This document shows, piece after piece, positions 6,513 through 41,268 of a stretch of DNA of 64,000 nucleotides. A program made the translations under genes and the position numbers. The notes beneath the pieces were generated by a model. That model was not told where the DNA came from. It was given only the letters and a program-made list of their open reading frames with translations, and did not search any database. Location: positions 38,395 to 102,394 of the forward strand of contig JAGIBF010000006.1 in assembly GCA_017744515.1 (NCBI GenBank). The letters are read 5' to 3'. The DNA is from Niastella sp. GTDB taxonomy: Bacteria; Bacteroidota; Bacteroidia; Chitinophagales; Chitinophagaceae. Each line of letters opens with the position of its first letter. The first letter of the stretch is position 1.

Positions 6513-7007
6513 TTAATTAGCCCCATAATGCAGGTGCCTGAATGTGATCCTTGTTCCCAGAAAGCGCTTATACTTTACCACAAAAAGATTATTGAACTCG
6601 GTTTCCGGCAGGTCGGCAGCTATCGTATTGTTGTTGGTAAGCCCGTTCACAATATTATCCACGGTATTACTGTGCCCCACGATCAGCGTACTACGCTTCA
6701 ACCCCTTCAGTTTGGCTATAAACGCGGAGTCGGGCATGGGGCCATAGATTTGGGTACTCAGCGACAGCAGGTTGCGCAGCGGCTCTGCCGTGCTTTTAGT
6801 GCGAACAGTATTGGTAGAGAAGATGTAGGCGATATTTTTAGTTGCCAAAGAGTCCTTCAGCGCCTGGGCACGCTGTTCGCCAGCCGCCGTCAGTGGCGGA
6901 TCGTTGGGCGGAGTGGTCCCTTTTTCAGCATGGCGAACCACATAATAAGTATGGCTGCAAGACGTTAGCAATAAGAGCAAGGCTAAGACAGATAGCATGG
7001 ACTTCAT
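6513..7007 (-). CDS. Histidine phosphatase superfamily (SixA/PGM-like) lipoprotein
   Basis: VVRHAEK and LIVGHSNT motifs; lipobox-like LTSC. Confidence 0.85.
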   Translation of the reverse strand: MKSMLSVLALLLLLTSCSHTYYVVRHAEKGTTPPNDPPLTAAGEQRAQALKDSLATKNIAYIFSTNTVRTKSTAEPLRNLLSLSTQIYGPMPDSAFIAKLKGLKRSTLIVGHSNTVDNIVNGLTNNNTIAADLPETEFNNLFVVKYKRFLGTRITFRHLHYGAN

Positions 7008-7104
7008 AAACAATAGTTTTAACACTTTAAAGTTAAACGTCATTTCTCAACAACGGTCAAAATTTCGTAAATTCAATTAACCGCCTAAAACACAAAATTA
7101 CCAG

Positions 7105-7821
7105 ATGAAAACACTTTCCGAAACCTGGTTTGCCGATGGTTATATTGACTTCGAATTGAAGAAGTACACCCTCCTGGCCTATCTACAAGAGGTAAACAAG
7201 TATTTTGACGCCAACAAGCTCTATCCCCAATTGGCAGACGTTATTTTCCACTACAACAACTTAGTGGCCTTCCGCGAAAACAAGAAGTATCTGCAAGAGC
7301 AGTTTCCCAAAACACTGACCGGTGTACAAATGGAAAAACTGCAACTACTATACGAGCAGATCATTGAAGACGATGAAATGATGCAGGAGCTGGAAGACAT
7401 TATCAACTATGCTACCAACAAGATCAAAAAAGCCATCAGCAATGGAACAGAGATATATGAGTTTGTAGAAAACAAGCTCATTATATTCCCGGTGGGTTTG
7501 ATACCATTAGATGTGCGGGAAGGCTATTTCTTCCTGAGCGAAGGCACCCACCGCAACACCCGCGTATACCAATACCGCCTGAGCTTTTTCGAAAAGCACG
7601 ATGAAAAATACAGGGCCATCAAAACCGAATATATAGACAGGTGGGAAAGAAATACAGTGAACACCTACGAAAACATCAAGGCCGAGCTGATACGTAAGAA
7701 AAGAGACCTGCCCAACCCGGCAGTATACTCCATCGAAACAGAACTCACCTTCCCGGTCGATGAAACACTCTTACCCATCGCCAAGCGCAGCCTGGTAAGA
7801 TATATCTCCACTGCCGCGTAA
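7105..7821 (+). CDS. Conserved hypothetical protein
   Basis: 238-aa ORF with coherent soluble composition and an A-rich initiation region. Confidence 0.75.
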   Translation: MKTLSETWFADGYIDFELKKYTLLAYLQEVNKYFDANKLYPQLADVIFHYNNLVAFRENKKYLQEQFPKTLTGVQMEKLQLLYEQIIEDDEMMQELEDIINYATNKIKKAISNGTEIYEFVENKLIIFPVGLIPLDVREGYFFLSEGTHRNTRVYQYRLSFFEKHDEKYRAIKTEYIDRWERNTVNTYENIKAELIRKKRDLPNPAVYSIETELTFPVDETLLPIAKRSLVRYISTAA

Positions 7822-7840
7822 GAGAAACATATTTTGGAGT

Positions 7841-7875
7841 TTGTCATTTCGAATGAAACTCCCCCTCTCTGTCAT
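7841..7875 (+). repeat. REP-like arm, left part (GTCATTTCGAA, spacer, then a second GTCAT cut by the IS)
   Basis: GTCATTTCGAA 7843-7853; TGTCAT 7870-7875 continues as TTCGAAC at 9101 once the IS is removed. Confidence 0.85.
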
Positions 7876-7891
7876 CCTATGTTTGCTGGGA

Positions 7892-8090
7892 AGTAAATAA
7901 GAGGAGAACTTAGTTGATTATTAAAAGGTCATACAGAAGCGGAGAAAAGAATCAGATTAAGTTTTGTCATTGGTCATAAAAGACCGTTCGAAATGCTAAT
8001 GCTTTTCTCCCTTACTGCCAAATCCTGAACAGTTCATTAGGCGTTGTGAGCCTGTATGTAGGATTGATAGGAAAAAGCAGTAATACTTCT
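7892..8090 (+). ncRNA. Predicted IS110 bridge RNA (target-binding and donor-binding loops); ends approximate
   Basis: Stem GGAGAAAAG/CTTTTCTCC encloses TTTTGTCAT (7962-7970) and TTCGAAATG (7987-7995). Stem TTACTGC/GCAGTAA encloses ACAGTTCAT (8029-8037) and TAGGAT (8059-8064). Confidence 0.85.
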
Positions 8091-8111
8091 GCGTGATATA
8101 AAACTAAGTAG

Positions 8112-9089
8112 ATGGCAAAAGTAAAAAACTTTGCAGGATTTGATGTAAGTAAAAAGTTCTTTGACGTTTGTTTGAGTGTTGATGGTTTAATGTCGTCAAC
8201 TCGTTTTAGTAATGATATACAGGGTTTTAAGGCTTTATTCAGTCAGTTGGCTGTGGATACGCATTGTGTAATGGAGGCTACTGGTCCTTATTACCTGCAA
8301 CTGGCTTTTTTTCTTCATGAGCATGGTCTGAAGGTGAGTGTTGTCAACCCTTTAATTATCCGTCGCTTCTGTCAGATGCGTTTGAGTCGTGCCAAGACTG
8401 ACAAAGCGGATGCCAGGCTGATAGTGGCCTATGGGATTAAAGAGGAACCAGCTGTTTGGGAGCCGCCGCAACAATATGTGATTGAGCTACAACAATTACA
8501 GGCATTGTGTGATCAGTTTCAAAAGCATTACCGGGCTTTAAGTAACCAGTTGGAGGCATTTACTGCGAGTGGCTTACTGTGCAAAAGGCTTGAACGACAA
8601 CTTCTGAAGGAATTGGCGCATATAGAAGAACAGATAGCCGGAATAGATAATCAGATGCATGAATTAATAACCGTGCATCACGGAGAAATGATGAATAATC
8701 TGACGAGTATTCCGGGATTAGGCAAGAAAACTGCGCTGGCCTTAATCGTGTTAAGTGGTGGCTTTAAGAAGTTCAACAATTATAAGCAGTTGAGTGCTTA
8801 TGTGGGTTTAAGTCCGCGGATTTATGAGTCTGGAACAAGTGTAAAAGGTCGTTCCCGGATTTGCAAAATGGGCATGAGTCGGATACGTGCTTTATTATAT
8901 GTATGCTCCTGGAGCGCAAAACGATGTAATGCGGCCTGTAAAGAGCTCTACGACCGGTTAGTGTTGAATGGGAAAAATAAGCGACTGGCGCTGATCGCCG
9001 TGGCTAATAAGCTGATAAAACAAGCATTTACCATAGCTACCACCAATGTTGCGTATGATAAGAATTACAGGAAAAACATTTGTTTATAA
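8112..9089 (+). CDS. IS110-family DEDD recombinase (transposase), apparently intact
   Basis: GFDVSK, VMEATG, KTDKADA (DEDD), SIPGLG, GLSP..YESG (catalytic Ser region). Confidence 0.95.
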   Translation: MAKVKNFAGFDVSKKFFDVCLSVDGLMSSTRFSNDIQGFKALFSQLAVDTHCVMEATGPYYLQLAFFLHEHGLKVSVVNPLIIRRFCQMRLSRAKTDKADARLIVAYGIKEEPAVWEPPQQYVIELQQLQALCDQFQKHYRALSNQLEAFTASGLLCKRLERQLLKELAHIEEQIAGIDNQMHELITVHHGEMMNNLTSIPGLGKKTALALIVLSGGFKKFNNYKQLSAYVGLSPRIYESGTSVKGRSRICKMGMSRIRALLYVCSWSAKRCNAACKELYDRLVLNGKNKRLALIAVANKLIKQAFTIATTNVAYDKNYRKNICL

Positions 9090-9100
9090 ACACAGTTCAT

Positions 9101-9164
9101 TTCGAACCCTGCCATACGCACCCGCCTCCACAACCAGTGTACAGGGTGAGAAATCTGCTATCGA
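9101..9164 (+). repeat. REP-like arm, continuation (TTCGAAC...GTGAGAAATCTGCTATCGA)
   Basis: 9146-9159 is a perfect inverted repeat of 9642-9655; 9146-9164 is the reverse complement of 41196-41214. Confidence 0.85.
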
Positions 9165-9276
9165 GTGATTAGCAGCTGAGCCCAAACCGGGAAAGAAAAT
9201 AAAGACCAGTTGTGCTATTTAATATCCGTACTTCAATCTAAGGCTGAAGATTTCCCGTATACTGGGTAAATCTAAT

Positions 9277-9621
9277 ATGCAAGTAAACCAGACCTATTTT
9301 GTATACATACTAACGAACCCCAATAAAACGGTACTCTATATTGGCGTTACCAATAATCTTGCTCAACGTATCATAGAACATTATATCAACCGCGGAAGCT
9401 CATCCACTTTTGCAGGCAGGCATTTTTGTTACCAATTATTATACTATGAAACATTTGGACAAATACGGAGTGCTATAGCAAGGGAAACAGAGATCAAAAA
9501 ATGGAACCGGAATAAAAAAGAGGCACTGATCAAAACAATGAATCCGGATTGGGTTTTCCTGAATAAAGAGTTGTTTGGCCAGCGGCCACCTGAAGAGGCG
9601 ATTTCACATAGAGGCAGTTAA
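9277..9621 (+). CDS. Small stand-alone GIY-YIG nuclease
   Basis: YFVYIL, LYIGVT, conserved Arg (QRIIEH) and Glu (ARETEIKKW); 114 aa. Confidence 0.92.
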   Translation: MQVNQTYFVYILTNPNKTVLYIGVTNNLAQRIIEHYINRGSSSTFAGRHFCYQLLYYETFGQIRSAIARETEIKKWNRNKKEALIKTMNPDWVFLNKELFGQRPPEEAISHRGS

Positions 9622-9641
9622 TAAAATCCGTTGTATTCGCA

Positions 9642-9766
9642 AGCAGATTTCTCACTGCGCCGCAGCTGCGTAATAGTCATAGTTCCCAATGGCTCCGTTC
9701 GAAATGACATTTAAGGGAGCAGTGTTACTATTTGTTCGAAATGGCAAAGAAGGAGGAGTTTCGTTT
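9642..9766 (-). repeat. REP-like right arm, inverted relative to the left arm
   Basis: AGCAGATTTCTCAC 9642-9655, GTTCGAAATGACA 9697-9709, GTTCGAAATGGC 9734-9745, then a purine-rich spacer resembling the reverse complement of 7852-7870. Confidence 0.85.
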
Positions 9767-9883
9767 ACAATAATACAAAAGTGGAAAACAAATGCAGTCA
9801 GCATTAAGGAGTATTTAACCATCCGGCTATAGCACCATCCTAAAAAGCGAACTATATTTAGGGAAGCGAAAACCCACCCGCAT

Positions 9884-10489
9884 ATGAAAAAGCTCTGCTT
9901 CCTGTTTGTGACAATGTTGTTTTGCCACCTGTCACTCCTGGCCCAGGTGAACGTAGGCGTGAAAGCCGGTATCAATATCAACAGGATCAAGTATAAAAAG
10001 GCGGACCCTGAAATGGCGAGCATTGGATTTCAGGCAGGTCTGCTGGCAAAGATTCACGTTACGGATGGTTTCTTCGTCCGCCCGGAAGTGCAATACTCCC
10101 GTAAAGGATACCGGTTTCCTGCCATTGGGTCTGATGGACAGGGGAATGTAAGGTATCATTATGTGGCTGTACCTATACTGGCCGGCATCCCCGTCGGCAG
10201 CAAATTCAGCTTCCTCATAGGACCGGAATTCGGCTACCTGGTGAAAGCCAATTCGAAATTCTCCACCAGTACCCGCGATGTGACGCAGAATTTCGAGCGT
10301 TTCGACTGGGGGCTTGACCTGGGCGGCGCCTGGCAGATCACTTCTTCCCTCGGTCTGGAAGTGCGCTATAATTATGGTTTCTACGGCCTGCTCAAAGGCG
10401 TCACCACTGGCCAGAATGGCGAAATTACCGGCAGCAACCGTGACGGCGCCAACCGGGTGATACAGGCTGGATTGTTTTATATGTTGTAA
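9884..10489 (+). CDS. Outer-membrane beta-barrel (porin-family/PorT-like) protein
   Basis: Signal peptide, GVKAGIN start, PEVQYSRKG, alternating beta pattern, aromatic C-terminus. Confidence 0.85.
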   Translation: MKKLCFLFVTMLFCHLSLLAQVNVGVKAGININRIKYKKADPEMASIGFQAGLLAKIHVTDGFFVRPEVQYSRKGYRFPAIGSDGQGNVRYHYVAVPILAGIPVGSKFSFLIGPEFGYLVKANSKFSTSTRDVTQNFERFDWGLDLGGAWQITSSLGLEVRYNYGFYGLLKGVTTGQNGEITGSNRDGANRVIQAGLFYML

Positions 10490-41178: not shown

Positions 41179-41195
41179 TTAACAAGGCGTTTGCT

Positions 41196-41268
41196 TCGAT
41201 AGCAGATTTCTCACTCCGCTATCGCTCCGTTCGAAATGACAAAAAAGGGAGAGTTCAGTTCGAAGTGG
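41196..41268 (-). repeat. Solo copy of the GTCATTTCGAAC...GTGAGAAATCTGCT REP family
   Basis: TCGATAGCAGATTTCTCAC-14 nt-GTTCGAAATGACAAAAAAGGGAGAGTTCAGTTCGAAG. Confidence 0.9.

What the first reader, a model, noticed from the sequence alone, without database searches (positions are those of the whole stretch)
7876..9100. IS110 bridge recombinase whose four RNA guides can be read directly and are programmed against a resident REP
Seen in the sequence: the 236-bp left end folds into two consecutive stem-loops. Loop 1 has outer stem GGAGAAAAG 7941-7949/CTTTTCTCC 8002-8010 and inner hairpin TGGTC/GACCG. It displays TTTTGTCAT (7962-7970) and TTCGAAATG (7987-7995, revcomp CATTTCGAA), which together spell the target TTTTGTCATTTCGAA, the REP stem. 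Loop 2 has outer stem TTACTGC/GCAGTAA and inner hairpin TAGGC/GCCTG. It displays ACAGTTCAT (8029-8037, identical to the IS right end 9092-9100) and TAGGAT (8059-8064, revcomp ATCCTA = core AT + IS left end), which describe the circle junction. The recombinase has intact DEDD and Ser motifs. Established: IS110 elements such as IS621 use a bridge RNA with left/right target and donor guides, and IS621 targets REPs. Inferred: this is a Bacteroidota ortholog with an AT core (TCAT microhomology), a candidate programmable recombinase from a phylum with few tools.
Basis: partly seen in the sequence, partly recalled or inferred. Interest (0 to 1): 0.85.

Follow-up and report, generated by a model that had tools for sequence, protein, structure and literature searches.

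The report
IS110 bridge-RNA element targeting a genomic repeat
This is a real, apparently intact IS110-family insertion sequence whose guide ("bridge") RNA can be read from the DNA and matches the abundant intergenic repeat it inserts into. It is a correct reading, but of a mechanism already described in 2024 and since mined at scale.

Summary
Window 7876-9100 is a 1,225-bp IS110 element. It has a 236-nt left end and a 325-aa recombinase that aligns along its full length to IS621 and ISCro4, with D11/E55/D97/D100/S240 conserved.

The left end encodes a two-loop RNA (7934-8091). A covariance model built from it finds one full-length copy upstream of the recombinase in 58 of 58 distinct Bacteroidota orthologues. 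In those copies 96.6% of cells are paired and 38 of 40 pairs show compensatory changes.

The guides behave as bridge-RNA guides:
- The right target guide changes among orthologues and tracks each element's own right flank (71/89 matches against 42.5±4.6 when permuted; 0 of 20,000 permutations reach it).
- A left-end change in one orthologue is compensated in its donor guide.

In this genome every recoverable insertion lies at TGTCAT^TTCGAAC. That 13-mer occurs 104 times (0.26 expected) and is the 5' end of an extragenic repeat family. The circle junction would assemble a Bacteroidota-type promoter (TTG-N20-TAnnTTTG) in 17 of 17 close relatives.

No RNA, circle or activity data exist. Verdict: a new member of a known kind. 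It is well documented computationally and of modest interest.

The parts
7836..7862 (+). Upstream half-unit of the repeat, GGAGTTTGTCATTTCGAATGAAACTCC. It holds an unoccupied copy of the target (TTTGTCAT^TTCGAA, 7839-7853) and forms a small hairpin.
   Evidence: Sequence; motif search; DNA fold z = -4.0; the same half-unit plus full-unit arrangement occurs elsewhere in the genome.
7867..7875 (+). Left target plus core of this insertion: CTCTGTC-AT.
   Evidence: Sequence; matches LTG TTTTGTCAT at 7 of 9 positions.
7876..9100 (+). The IS110-family element (1,225 bp). It has no terminal inverted repeats and no target duplication beyond the shared (TC)AT.
   Evidence: Identical ends recur at three other contig ends, where identity stops exactly at these boundaries. 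Orthologues share the same boundaries...GTCAT|CCTATGTTTG and ACAGTTCAT|flank.
7878..7885 (+). TATGTTTG, a perfect Bacteroidota -7 box (TAnnTTTG), at the extreme left end. It overlaps the right-donor sequence.
   Evidence: Sequence; nearly invariant in the close orthologues (CCTATGTTTG in 15 of 17). Its promoter role is inferred from the published Bacteroidota consensus (my own knowledge).
7908..7915 (+). 5' strand (ACTTAGTT) of a long-range helix. Its partner is AACTAAGT at 8101-8108, three bases before the ATG.
   Evidence: MFE fold; RNAduplex z = -3.2 here and about -2.1 to -2.8 in five of the close orthologues with other sequences, absent in the distant clade. Function unknown.
7934..8091 (+). 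Bridge RNA core (158 nt), bounded by closing helix P0 (CAGAAG 7934-7939 / CTTCTG 8086-8091).
   Evidence: Model R1 hits 58 of 58 distinct orthologue loci full-length, upstream of the ORF. 96.6% of cells are paired and 38 of 40 pairs are compensatory; slid controls give 46-57%.
7941..8010 (+). Target-binding loop. P1 7941-7949/8002-8010; P2 7955-7958/7998-8001; LTG 7962-7970 (TTTTGTC+AT); hairpin P3 7971-7975/7982-7986; RTG 7987-7995 (TTCGAA+AT+G).
   Evidence: RTG against right flank gives 71/89 matches versus 42.5±4.6 when permuted, 0 of 20,000.
8012..8083 (+). Donor-binding loop. P4 8012-8018/8077-8083; P5 8023-8026/8069-8072; LDG 8029-8037 (ACAGTTC+AT); hairpin P6 8038-8042/8050-8054; RDG 8059-8064 (TAGG+AT), possibly extended to 8056 through two G·T/U·G wobbles.
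   Evidence: LDG equals the right end in the close clade and changes with it in other clades. In L064 the left end GCTA... is matched by RDG ...AGCAT.
8112..9089 (+). Bridge recombinase, 325 aa: a RuvC-like DEDD domain (D11, E55, D97, D100), a coiled-coil, and a Tnp domain with S240.
   Evidence: Pfam; invariant columns in 14 homologues; full-length alignment to ISCro4 (9t56, E = 1.4e-37) and IS621 (8wt6, E = 2.3e-37).
9079..9082 (+). TTTG inside the last codons of the recombinase. After circularisation it lies 20 nt upstream of TATGTTTG and would serve as the -33 box.
   Evidence: Sequence. TTG at this spacing is found in 17 of 17 close orthologues, including those whose stop codon lies upstream of it. 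In the integrated state the motif is found in only 1 of the 13 elements that have a full 45-nt flank.
9092..9100 (+). Left donor plus core: ACAGTTC-AT, the right end of the element.
   Evidence: Identical to LDG 8029-8037.
9101..9164 (+). Right target TTCGAA (9101-9106) and the rest of the interrupted repeat unit (TTCGAAC-CCTG...CAGG-GTGAGAAATCTGCTATCGA).
   Evidence: Sequence; family alignment of 112 genomic units.

Best explanation
Window 7876-9100 is a functional-looking IS110-group insertion sequence, that is, a bridge recombinase system.

Its left end encodes a roughly 160-nt bridge RNA with two internal loops.
[quoted passage not shown] Together they specify the 15-bp site TTTTGTC-AT-TTCGAA.
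- In the donor-binding loop, ACAGTTC-AT and TAGG-AT would pair in the same way with the right-end/left-end junction of the excised circle.

The DEDD/Ser recombinase would then exchange strands at the shared AT core. This inserts the circle without a target duplication.

The specified site is the conserved 5' end of an abundant extragenic repeat, with more than 100 copies. The element therefore has many neutral landing pads.

Circularisation would join a -33 TTG in the right end to a -7 TAnnTTTG in the left end. That would switch on bridge RNA and recombinase expression from the circle only.

Shown here: anatomy, conservation, covariation and insertion-site specificity. Inferred by homology to IS621: RNA expression, RNA-protein complex formation, the cleavage positions and the circle intermediate.
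For: Protein:
- Both Pfam IS110 domains are present.
- It aligns along its full length to the solved bridge recombinases IS621 and ISCro4, E about 1e-37.
- The catalytic D11/E55/D97/D100/S240 are invariant in homologues.

RNA:
- Fold z = -5.5.
- There is one full-length model hit upstream of the ORF in 58 of 58 distinct loci.
- 96.6% of cells are paired and 38 of 40 pairs have compensatory changes. 0 of 500 shuffles reach the observed values on four of the five measures (5 of 500 for further pair types), and slid controls give 46-57%.

Guides:
- Eight different right target guides among close orthologues each match their own right flank: TTCGAA, TGCGAA, GCTGAA, CCTGAA, GGTGAG, TCCGAA, TTATGC and CGGATA.
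- That is 71/89 Watson-Crick matches, or 81/89 with wobble, against 42.5±4.6 when permuted (0 of 20,000).
- The LDG follows the right end across clades.
- A C-to-G change at the left end in L064 is compensated in its RDG.

Insertion sites in this genome:
- The three left junctions read CTCTGTCAT|, TTTTGTCAT| and GTTTGTCAT|. The two right junctions read |TTCGAAC.
- Extra junction contigs in metagenome runs show the same pattern. The IS contig depth is 28.6 against 4.4-6.6 for the flanks, suggesting about 5 copies.

Target abundance:
- TGTCATTTCGAAC occurs 104 times against 0.26 expected.
- Only 15.5% of the 116 GTCATTTCGAA sites lie in long open frames, against 89% of the genome.

Promoter:
- The junction gives TTG-N20(19)-TAnnTTTG in 17 of 17 close elements.

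The architecture and strand rule agree with the published definition (PMC11208160; PMC13626964).
Against: - There is no direct evidence of transcription, circle junction or recombination. No RNA run holds the left end. The DNA runs are contigs only and show no joints.
- Only one copy is fully assembled; the others are contig-end stubs.
- The four distal LTG positions track the left flank only weakly across orthologues (28/64 against 22±2.9, p about 0.03). This copy's own left flank has two mismatches.
- Two orthologues sit at right flanks that do not match their RTG: L015 at 0 of 6 and L019 at 4 of 6.
- Some orthologues carry LDG core positions that do not match their own right end: GT in L005 and L020, AG in L017, L044 and L056.
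- The helix statistics come from an alignment fitted to the model, which favours the structure.
- The AT core and cleavage positions are assigned by analogy. The shared TCAT leaves the exact crossover undetermined.
Confidence: 0.92

Rival explanations
1. The element is an IS110 relic or domesticated copy. The RNA structure and guides are inherited but the system no longer transposes in this genome.
For: No circle or empty-site evidence was found. Only one assembled copy contains the RNA.
Against: The ORF is intact with all catalytic residues. All recovered ends are 100% identical. The IS contig is about 5 times deeper than its flanks. The element is absent from six same-genus genomes. Together these point to recent spread within this lineage.
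Confidence: 0.05
2. The left-end structure is a cis-regulatory leader (attenuator or translational control) of the transposase. The matches to the target arise because the element picked up repeat sequence.
For: A long-range helix pairs 7908-7915 with 8101-8108 next to the start codon, so some cis-regulation is plausible. The repeat is abundant, so capture is conceivable.
Against: The two halves of the target are not a contiguous repeat copy. They lie on opposite sides of a hairpin and in opposite senses, exactly as in IS621. The same arrangement holds for the element's own ends in the second loop. Orthologues in other hosts carry different 3' guides that match their own flanks, which capture does not predict.
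Confidence: 0.02
3. Site choice is made mainly by the protein, or by the DNA structure of the repeat, with the RNA contributing little. This would be a 'structure-gated' recognition, as proposed for ISPpu10.
For: GTCAT and the right end ACAGTTCAT are nearly invariant across close orthologues. Distal LTG positions match only weakly. An ISPpu10 preprint reports an added requirement for a target hairpin.
Against: RTG-flank covariation is very strong. Full repeat units do not fold better than shuffles. This reading would add to RNA guidance, not replace it.
Confidence: 0.15

Closest known systems
IS621 (E. coli) bridge recombinase and bridge RNA (Durrant et al. 2024, PMC11208160; Hiraizumi et al. 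2024/2026, PDB 8wt6)
   Same: - The recombinase has the same domains and aligns along its full length (E = 2.3e-37).
- The RNA is encoded in the left end.
- There are two internal loops, each with a 5' guide identical to the top strand and a 3' guide reverse-complementary to it.
- A core dinucleotide is covered by all four guides.
- A promoter is split across the RE-LE junction.
- The natural targets are repeated extragenic sequences.
   Different: - The core is AT (within a shared TCAT) instead of CT.
- The right target guide is longer, with 6 non-core nt against the 4-base RTG (core included) described for IS621. This gives a 15-bp target.
- A closing helix encloses both loops, and no separate 5' stem-loop was found inside the conserved model.
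- The junction promoter is of the Bacteroidota -33/-7 type rather than sigma-70.
- The protein is distant, aligning only at E about 1e-37.
ISCro4 / IS622 bridge recombinases used in human cells (10.1101/2025.05.14.653916; PDB 9t56)
   Same: It is the best structural-database match of the recombinase (E = 1.4e-37, residues 5-318). The catalytic motifs align (GfDvSK, mEAT, KTDxxDA, YESG-S).
   Different: The host phylum, target and core differ. No activity data exist for the present element.
ISPpu10 / ISPpu9 of Pseudomonas putida (REP-targeting IS110 elements; 10.64898/2026.03.19.712850)
   Same: These are IS110 elements that insert into one conserved, multi-copy intergenic sequence and so use the repeats as safe landing pads.
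   Different: ISPpu10 is reported to need a target-DNA stem-loop as well as RNA pairing. Here the full repeat units show no significant DNA fold, and such a requirement was not testable.
IS1111-group elements with seekRNA
   Same: Same recombinase family, with RNA-guided site choice.
   Different: In that group the guide RNA is encoded downstream of the gene, in the right end. Here only 11 nt follow the stop codon and the RNA lies upstream, so this is the IS110 group.

Membership tests
IS110 family (IS110 group) bridge recombinase system | N-terminal RuvC-like DEDD domain | tested here: met
   PF01548 at E = 1.6e-22. D11, E55, D97 and D100 are invariant in 14 homologues and aligned with ISCro4 in the printed alignment; IS621 matches over the same span (E = 2.3e-37).
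IS110 family (IS110 group) bridge recombinase system | C-terminal Tnp domain with catalytic serine | tested here: met
   PF02371 at E = 1.6e-22. S240, in the YESGTS motif, is invariant and aligns to the YESGSS motif of ISCro4.
IS110 family (IS110 group) bridge recombinase system | No terminal inverted repeats and no target-site duplication beyond the core | tested here: met
   The left end CCTATGTTTG... and right end ...ACACAGTTCAT are unrelated in either orientation. The flanks are ...TGTCAT and TTCGAAC..., and only (TC)AT is shared.
IS110 family (IS110 group) bridge recombinase system | Long non-coding left end encoding a conserved RNA with two internal loops | tested here: met
   The left end is 236 nt. 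Fold z = -5.5. The model hits 58 of 58 loci. 38 of 40 pairs are compensatory. No Rfam family matched.
IS110 family (IS110 group) bridge recombinase system | LTG/RTG complementary to the left (bottom-strand) and right (top-strand) target | tested here: met
   In this genome the guides match the flanks at 7-9 of 9 (LTG) and 6 of 6 (RTG). Across orthologues the RTG covaries with the flank, 0 of 20,000 permutations. Distal LTG covariation is weak (p about 0.03).
IS110 family (IS110 group) bridge recombinase system | LDG/RDG complementary to the RE-LE donor junction | tested here: met
   The LDG equals the right end at 9 of 9. The RDG equals core plus CCTA. There is a compensatory left-end/RDG change in L064, and LDG/right-end co-variation between clades.
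IS110 family (IS110 group) bridge recombinase system | Core dinucleotide shared by donor and target and covered by all four guides | tested here: met
   AT ends both LTG and LDG and is complemented in RTG and RDG. It is AT, not the CT of IS621. Some orthologues have a mismatched LDG core. The cleavage position itself is not testable here.
IS110 family (IS110 group) bridge recombinase system | Promoter reconstituted across the circle junction | tested here: inconclusive
   The sequence motif TTG-N20-TAnnTTTG is present in 17 of 17 joined ends. It is present in only 1 of the 13 integrated-state elements that have a full 45-nt flank. Promoter activity was not measured.
IS110 family (IS110 group) bridge recombinase system | RNA expressed, bound by the recombinase and required for programmable recombination; circular intermediate | not testable with these tools
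   No RNA run holds the left end. The runs are contigs only and show no joints. Metatranscriptome contigs cover an orthologue, but DNA carry-over cannot be excluded.
REP (repetitive extragenic palindromic) elements | Short, abundant, extragenic repeat | tested here: met
   GTCATTTCGAA occurs 116 times and TGTCATTTCGAAC 104 times against 0.26 expected. 15.5% of the GTCATTTCGAA sites lie in long open frames against 89% of the genome.
REP (repetitive extragenic palindromic) elements | Imperfect palindrome forming a stable hairpin | tested here: inconclusive
   The conserved ends can pair (ATTTC-GA-AC.../...GT-GA-GAAAT). As DNA, however, three units fold no better than shuffles (z = -1.3, +0.4, -0.5). 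Only the half-unit 7836-7862 is significant.
REP (repetitive extragenic palindromic) elements | Associated RAYT (Y1 transposase) flanked by inverted REPs | tested here: not met
   There are three Y1_Tnp hits in the genome. None is flanked by inverted units of this repeat.

The most novel reading that the evidence does not exclude
This element may represent a Bacteroidota-wide IS110 lineage with its own rule set:
- an AT core inside a conserved TCAT;
- a 15-bp target with a 6-nt non-core right guide;
- conserved U·G closing pairs on both inner hairpins;
- a circle-only Bacteroidota -33/-7 promoter.

Its right target guide has been naturally re-programmed host by host, following local variants of a pan-Bacteroidota repeat (GTCAT|TTCGAA, TGCGAG, GCTGAG, CCTGAG, GGTGAG, TCCGAG). 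That would be a ready-made natural reprogramming series, and a native-promoter chassis for bridge editing in Bacteroidota.
Probability: 0.6. Interest if true: 0.45.

Novelty: new member of a known kind. Interest (0 to 1): 0.33.

Why it matters
The finding shows that a bridge RNA's four guides, its target and its donor can be read correctly from raw sequence.

It documents a well-populated Bacteroidota clade, with 58 distinct RNAs. In that clade the right target guide has diversified together with host-specific repeat variants. The junction promoter follows Bacteroidota rather than sigma-70 rules.

That is useful for annotation, because neither the RNA nor the repeat is in Rfam. It also offers a possible orthogonal, longer-guide bridge recombinase.

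It does not change the understanding of the mechanism.

Tried and rejected
1. Rfam search, both with permissive E-values on 7000-10000 and at gathering thresholds on the whole window. No family matched the RNA or the repeat.

2. MAFFT/RNAalifold on unanchored left ends. These recovered only two helices, because the purine and pyrimidine runs misalign. They were replaced by a covariance model built from three close sequences.

3. Empty-site search with the joined flanks in 40 relatives. Only the upstream gene is conserved (77-83% identity in the same genus) and the intergenic region is not, so no orthologous empty site could be shown.

4. Circle junction and expression:
- DNA runs are contigs only and show no joints.
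- No RNA run holds the left end.
- Metatranscriptome contigs cover a Mucilaginibacter orthologue, but they cannot separate a small RNA from read-through or DNA.

5. The idea that the neighbouring GIY-YIG gene (9277-9621), flanked by inverted repeat units, mobilises the repeat. This was rejected as a general relation. The genome has only two homologues and the second has no repeat nearby.

6. The idea that a RAYT mobilises the repeat. No Y1 transposase is flanked by inverted units.

7. Guide and core assignment in the Flavobacteriaceae clade (right end ...CAGTTCTT|TGTTG). The core-covering guide positions do not obviously agree with the ends. This was left unresolved.
Full report
**Observation**

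Every string and coordinate in the finding is present as stated.
- The 236-nt stretch between the left boundary (7876) and the start codon (8112) folds to -71 kcal/mol. Shuffles give -47.9±4.2 (z = -5.5, 0 of 200 as good).
- The ORF 8112-9089 (325 aa) carries both IS110 Pfam domains, DEDD_Tnp_IS110 and Transposase_20, each at E = 1.6e-22.
- It aligns over residues 5-318 to the two bridge recombinases with solved structures: ISCro4 (9t56, E = 1.4e-37) and IS621 (8wt6, E = 2.3e-37).
- In an alignment with 13 homologues of 58-80% identity, D11, E55, D97, D100 and S240 are invariant.

**Anatomy**

The conserved RNA spans 7934-8091 and has seven helices.

| Part | Coordinates |
|---|---|
| Closing helix P0 | 7934-7939 / 8086-8091 |
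| Target loop, P1 | 7941-7949 / 8002-8010 |
| Target loop, P2 | 7955-7958 / 7998-8001 |
| LTG | 7962-7970 |
| Target loop, hairpin P3 | 7971-7975 / 7982-7986 |
| RTG | 7987-7995 |
| Donor loop, P4 | 8012-8018 / 8077-8083 |
| Donor loop, P5 | 8023-8026 / 8069-8072 |
| LDG | 8029-8037 |
| Donor loop, hairpin P6 | 8038-8042 / 8050-8054 |
| RDG | 8059-8064 |

- The two loops are built alike. Each inner hairpin is closed by a U·G pair that is conserved in 48 and 55 of 58 sequences respectively.
- The RDG could extend to 8056 if two G·T/U·G wobbles are allowed. This is inference only.

**Is the structure real?**

I fetched 80 loci encoding relatives of 42-64% identity from Bacteroidota genomes. They include Chitinophaga, Mucilaginibacter, Pontibacter, Christiangramia, Winogradskyella and others.
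- A plain MAFFT alignment recovered only two helices.
- I therefore built a covariance model from the window and two close relatives, using the seven helices.
- The model finds exactly one full-length match, always just upstream of the recombinase gene, in all 58 distinct loci.
- On the resulting alignment 96.6% of cells are standard pairs, against 73.8% in shuffles. 38 of 40 pairs show changes on both sides. Sliding the 3' partners by 1-3 columns drops pairing to 46-57%.
- The alignment is fitted to the model, which favours the structure. Even so, the margin and the many pair types per position (AU/GC/CG/UA) leave little doubt.

**Are the loops guides?**

The published rule has three parts (PMC11208160):
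[quoted passage not shown] - the core is included in all four pairings.

Here LTG TTTTGTC-AT and the reverse complement of the RTG, (C)AT-TTCGAA, spell TTTTGTC-AT-TTCGAA. LDG ACAGTTC-AT is the right end. The reverse complement of the RDG, AT-CCTA, is core plus left end.

The decisive test is across species.
- Close orthologues carry eight different RTGs.
- Each matches its own right flank: 71 of 89 positions Watson-Crick, or 81 of 89 with wobble. Random re-pairing gives 42.5±4.6, and 0 of 20,000 permutations reach the observed value.
- Examples of the reverse complement of the guide against the flank: TGCGAA against TGCGAG, GCTGAA against GCTGAG, CCTGAA against CCTGAG, GGTGAG against GGTGAG, TCCGAA against TCCGAG, CGGATA against CGGATG.
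- L064 has a left end beginning GCTA instead of CCTA, and its RDG reads AGCAT instead of AGGAT.
- The LDG follows the right end between clades: ACAGTTCA, TCAGTTCT and TTAGTTCT.

Weaker points:
- The four distal LTG positions match the left flanks only slightly better than chance (28/64 against 22±2.9).
- Two orthologues sit at non-matching right flanks (L015, L019).
- Five orthologues have an LDG whose core positions do not match their right end.

**Insertion sites in this genome**

The assembly holds one complete copy and three contig-end stubs that are 100% identical.
- The three left junctions read CTCTGTCAT|, TTTTGTCAT| and GTTTGTCAT|.
- The two right junctions read |TTCGAACCC and |TTCGAACGGAGCG.
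- In soil-metagenome contigs the IS contig has depth 28.6 against 4.4-6.6 for its flanks, which suggests about five copies. Further junction contigs again show repeat sequence on both sides.
- The element is absent from six genomes of the same genus. This suggests recent acquisition and spread.

**The target**

TGTCATTTCGAAC occurs 104 times in the 7.63-Mb genome (0.26 expected). The full 15-mer occurs 24 times.
- The motif is the fixed 5' end of a repeat family of this form: cccTcTTtT-GTCATTTCGAAC-[variable centre of about 16 to 45 nt]-GTGAGAAATCTGCTATCGAAGCAAA.
- The family is often preceded by tandem 27-29-nt half-units.
- The GTCATTTCGAA sites are extragenic: 15.5% lie in long open frames against 89% of the genome.
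- Calling it a REP is fair for abundance and location. However, full units do not fold better than shuffles as DNA, and no Y1 transposase is flanked by inverted units.
- An unoccupied perfect site lies only 22 bp upstream of the insertion (7840-7853).

**Expression model (inferred)**

Joining 9100 to 7876 gives TTTG(9079-9082)-N20-TATGTTTG(7878-7885).
- This is the Bacteroidota -33/-7 promoter consensus as I know it from the literature on Bacteroides and Flavobacterium promoters.
- The same TTG-N20(19)-TAnnTTTG is found in 17 of 17 close elements. That includes those in which the TTG lies after the stop codon, so it is not merely a coding constraint.
- With the genomic flank in place of the right end, the motif appears in only 1 of the 13 elements that have a full 45-nt flank.
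- This parallels the sigma-70 junction promoter of IS621. It also parallels the weak expression of bridge RNA from integrated copies (PMC13626964).

**Comparison with what is known**

All sequence-level defining features of the IS110-group bridge systems are met. The differences are of degree: an AT core instead of CT, a longer right target guide, a closing helix around both loops, and a phylum-specific promoter.
- The 2024 paper already noted that some orthologues have longer RTGs.
- A 2026 preprint mined bridge-RNA loci genome-wide, with attention to longer guides.
- Another 2026 preprint showed that IS621 edits Bacteroides thetaiotaomicron, B. ovatus and Pontibacter.
- REP-targeting IS110 elements are also known, namely IS621 and ISPpu10.

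I therefore class this as a new member of a known kind.

**Limits**

No experiment-like evidence could be obtained.
- No RNA run holds the left end.
- Contig-only DNA runs show no joints.
- Metatranscriptome contigs that cover a Mucilaginibacter orthologue cannot separate a small RNA from read-through or DNA carry-over.
- An orthologous empty site could not be found, because the intergenic region is not conserved in the genus.

**Verdict**

Novelty is low to moderate and interest is 0.33.

Noticed in passing
window 9101-9164 (+), 9640-9747 (-), 41190-41250 (-); genome-wide: The target belongs to a repeat family with fixed ends (GTCATTTCGAAC ... GTGAGAAATCTGCTATCGAAGCAAA). Its centre comes in at least three interchangeable classes: GGAGCGATAGCGGAGT, GGAGCCATT...GGCGCAGT and CCTGCC...CAGGGT. 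The ends can pair as ATTTC-GA-AC/GT-GA-GAAAT with tandem G·A mismatches. Tandem 27-29-nt half-units often precede a full unit. It is not in Rfam and no mobilising enzyme was identified.
   Followed up: partly
window 9277-9621 (+) with repeat units at 9101-9164 (+) and 9640-9747 (-): A 114-aa GIY-YIG protein gene is bracketed by inverted repeat units, which looks RAYT-like. Genome-wide there are only two homologues, and the other (C87:32883-33143) has no repeat nearby. A general GIY-YIG/repeat partnership is therefore not supported.
   Followed up: yes
window 7908-7915 with 8101-8108: A long-range 8-bp helix (ACTTAGTT/AACTAAGT) encloses the whole bridge RNA and ends 3 nt before the recombinase ATG. 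Equivalent pairings with other sequences occur in several close orthologues (z about -2.1 to -2.8) but not in the distant clade. It might couple RNA folding or processing to translation of the recombinase.
   Followed up: partly
loci L025-L083 (Flavobacteriaceae clade): This clade has the same RNA architecture but different ends (...CAGTTCTT|TGTTG). Guide positions over the presumed core do not obviously agree between LDG (..CTG), RTG (..CAA or ..CAT in reverse complement) and the DNA (..CTT). Either the core or register differs, or mismatched core guides are tolerated or used.
   Followed up: no
L005, L020 (LDG ...TTCGT) and L017, L044, L056 (LDG ...TTCAG) against right end ...TTCAT: Natural donor-guide core positions do not match the element's own right end in five close orthologues, while the target guides keep AT. 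This may relate to the handshake-guide or directionality effects described for IS621, or it may be decay.
   Followed up: no
L015 and L019 right flanks: Two orthologues sit at right flanks that do not match their RTG (0 of 6 and 4 of 6). These may be off-target 'half-match' insertions or later rearrangements at the right junction.
   Followed up: no
G000 C97:33340-33681, C131:7331-7657, C119:5902-6108: There are three Y1_Tnp (PF01797) genes in the genome. None has the inverted-repeat flanks expected of a RAYT for this repeat family.
   Followed up: partly
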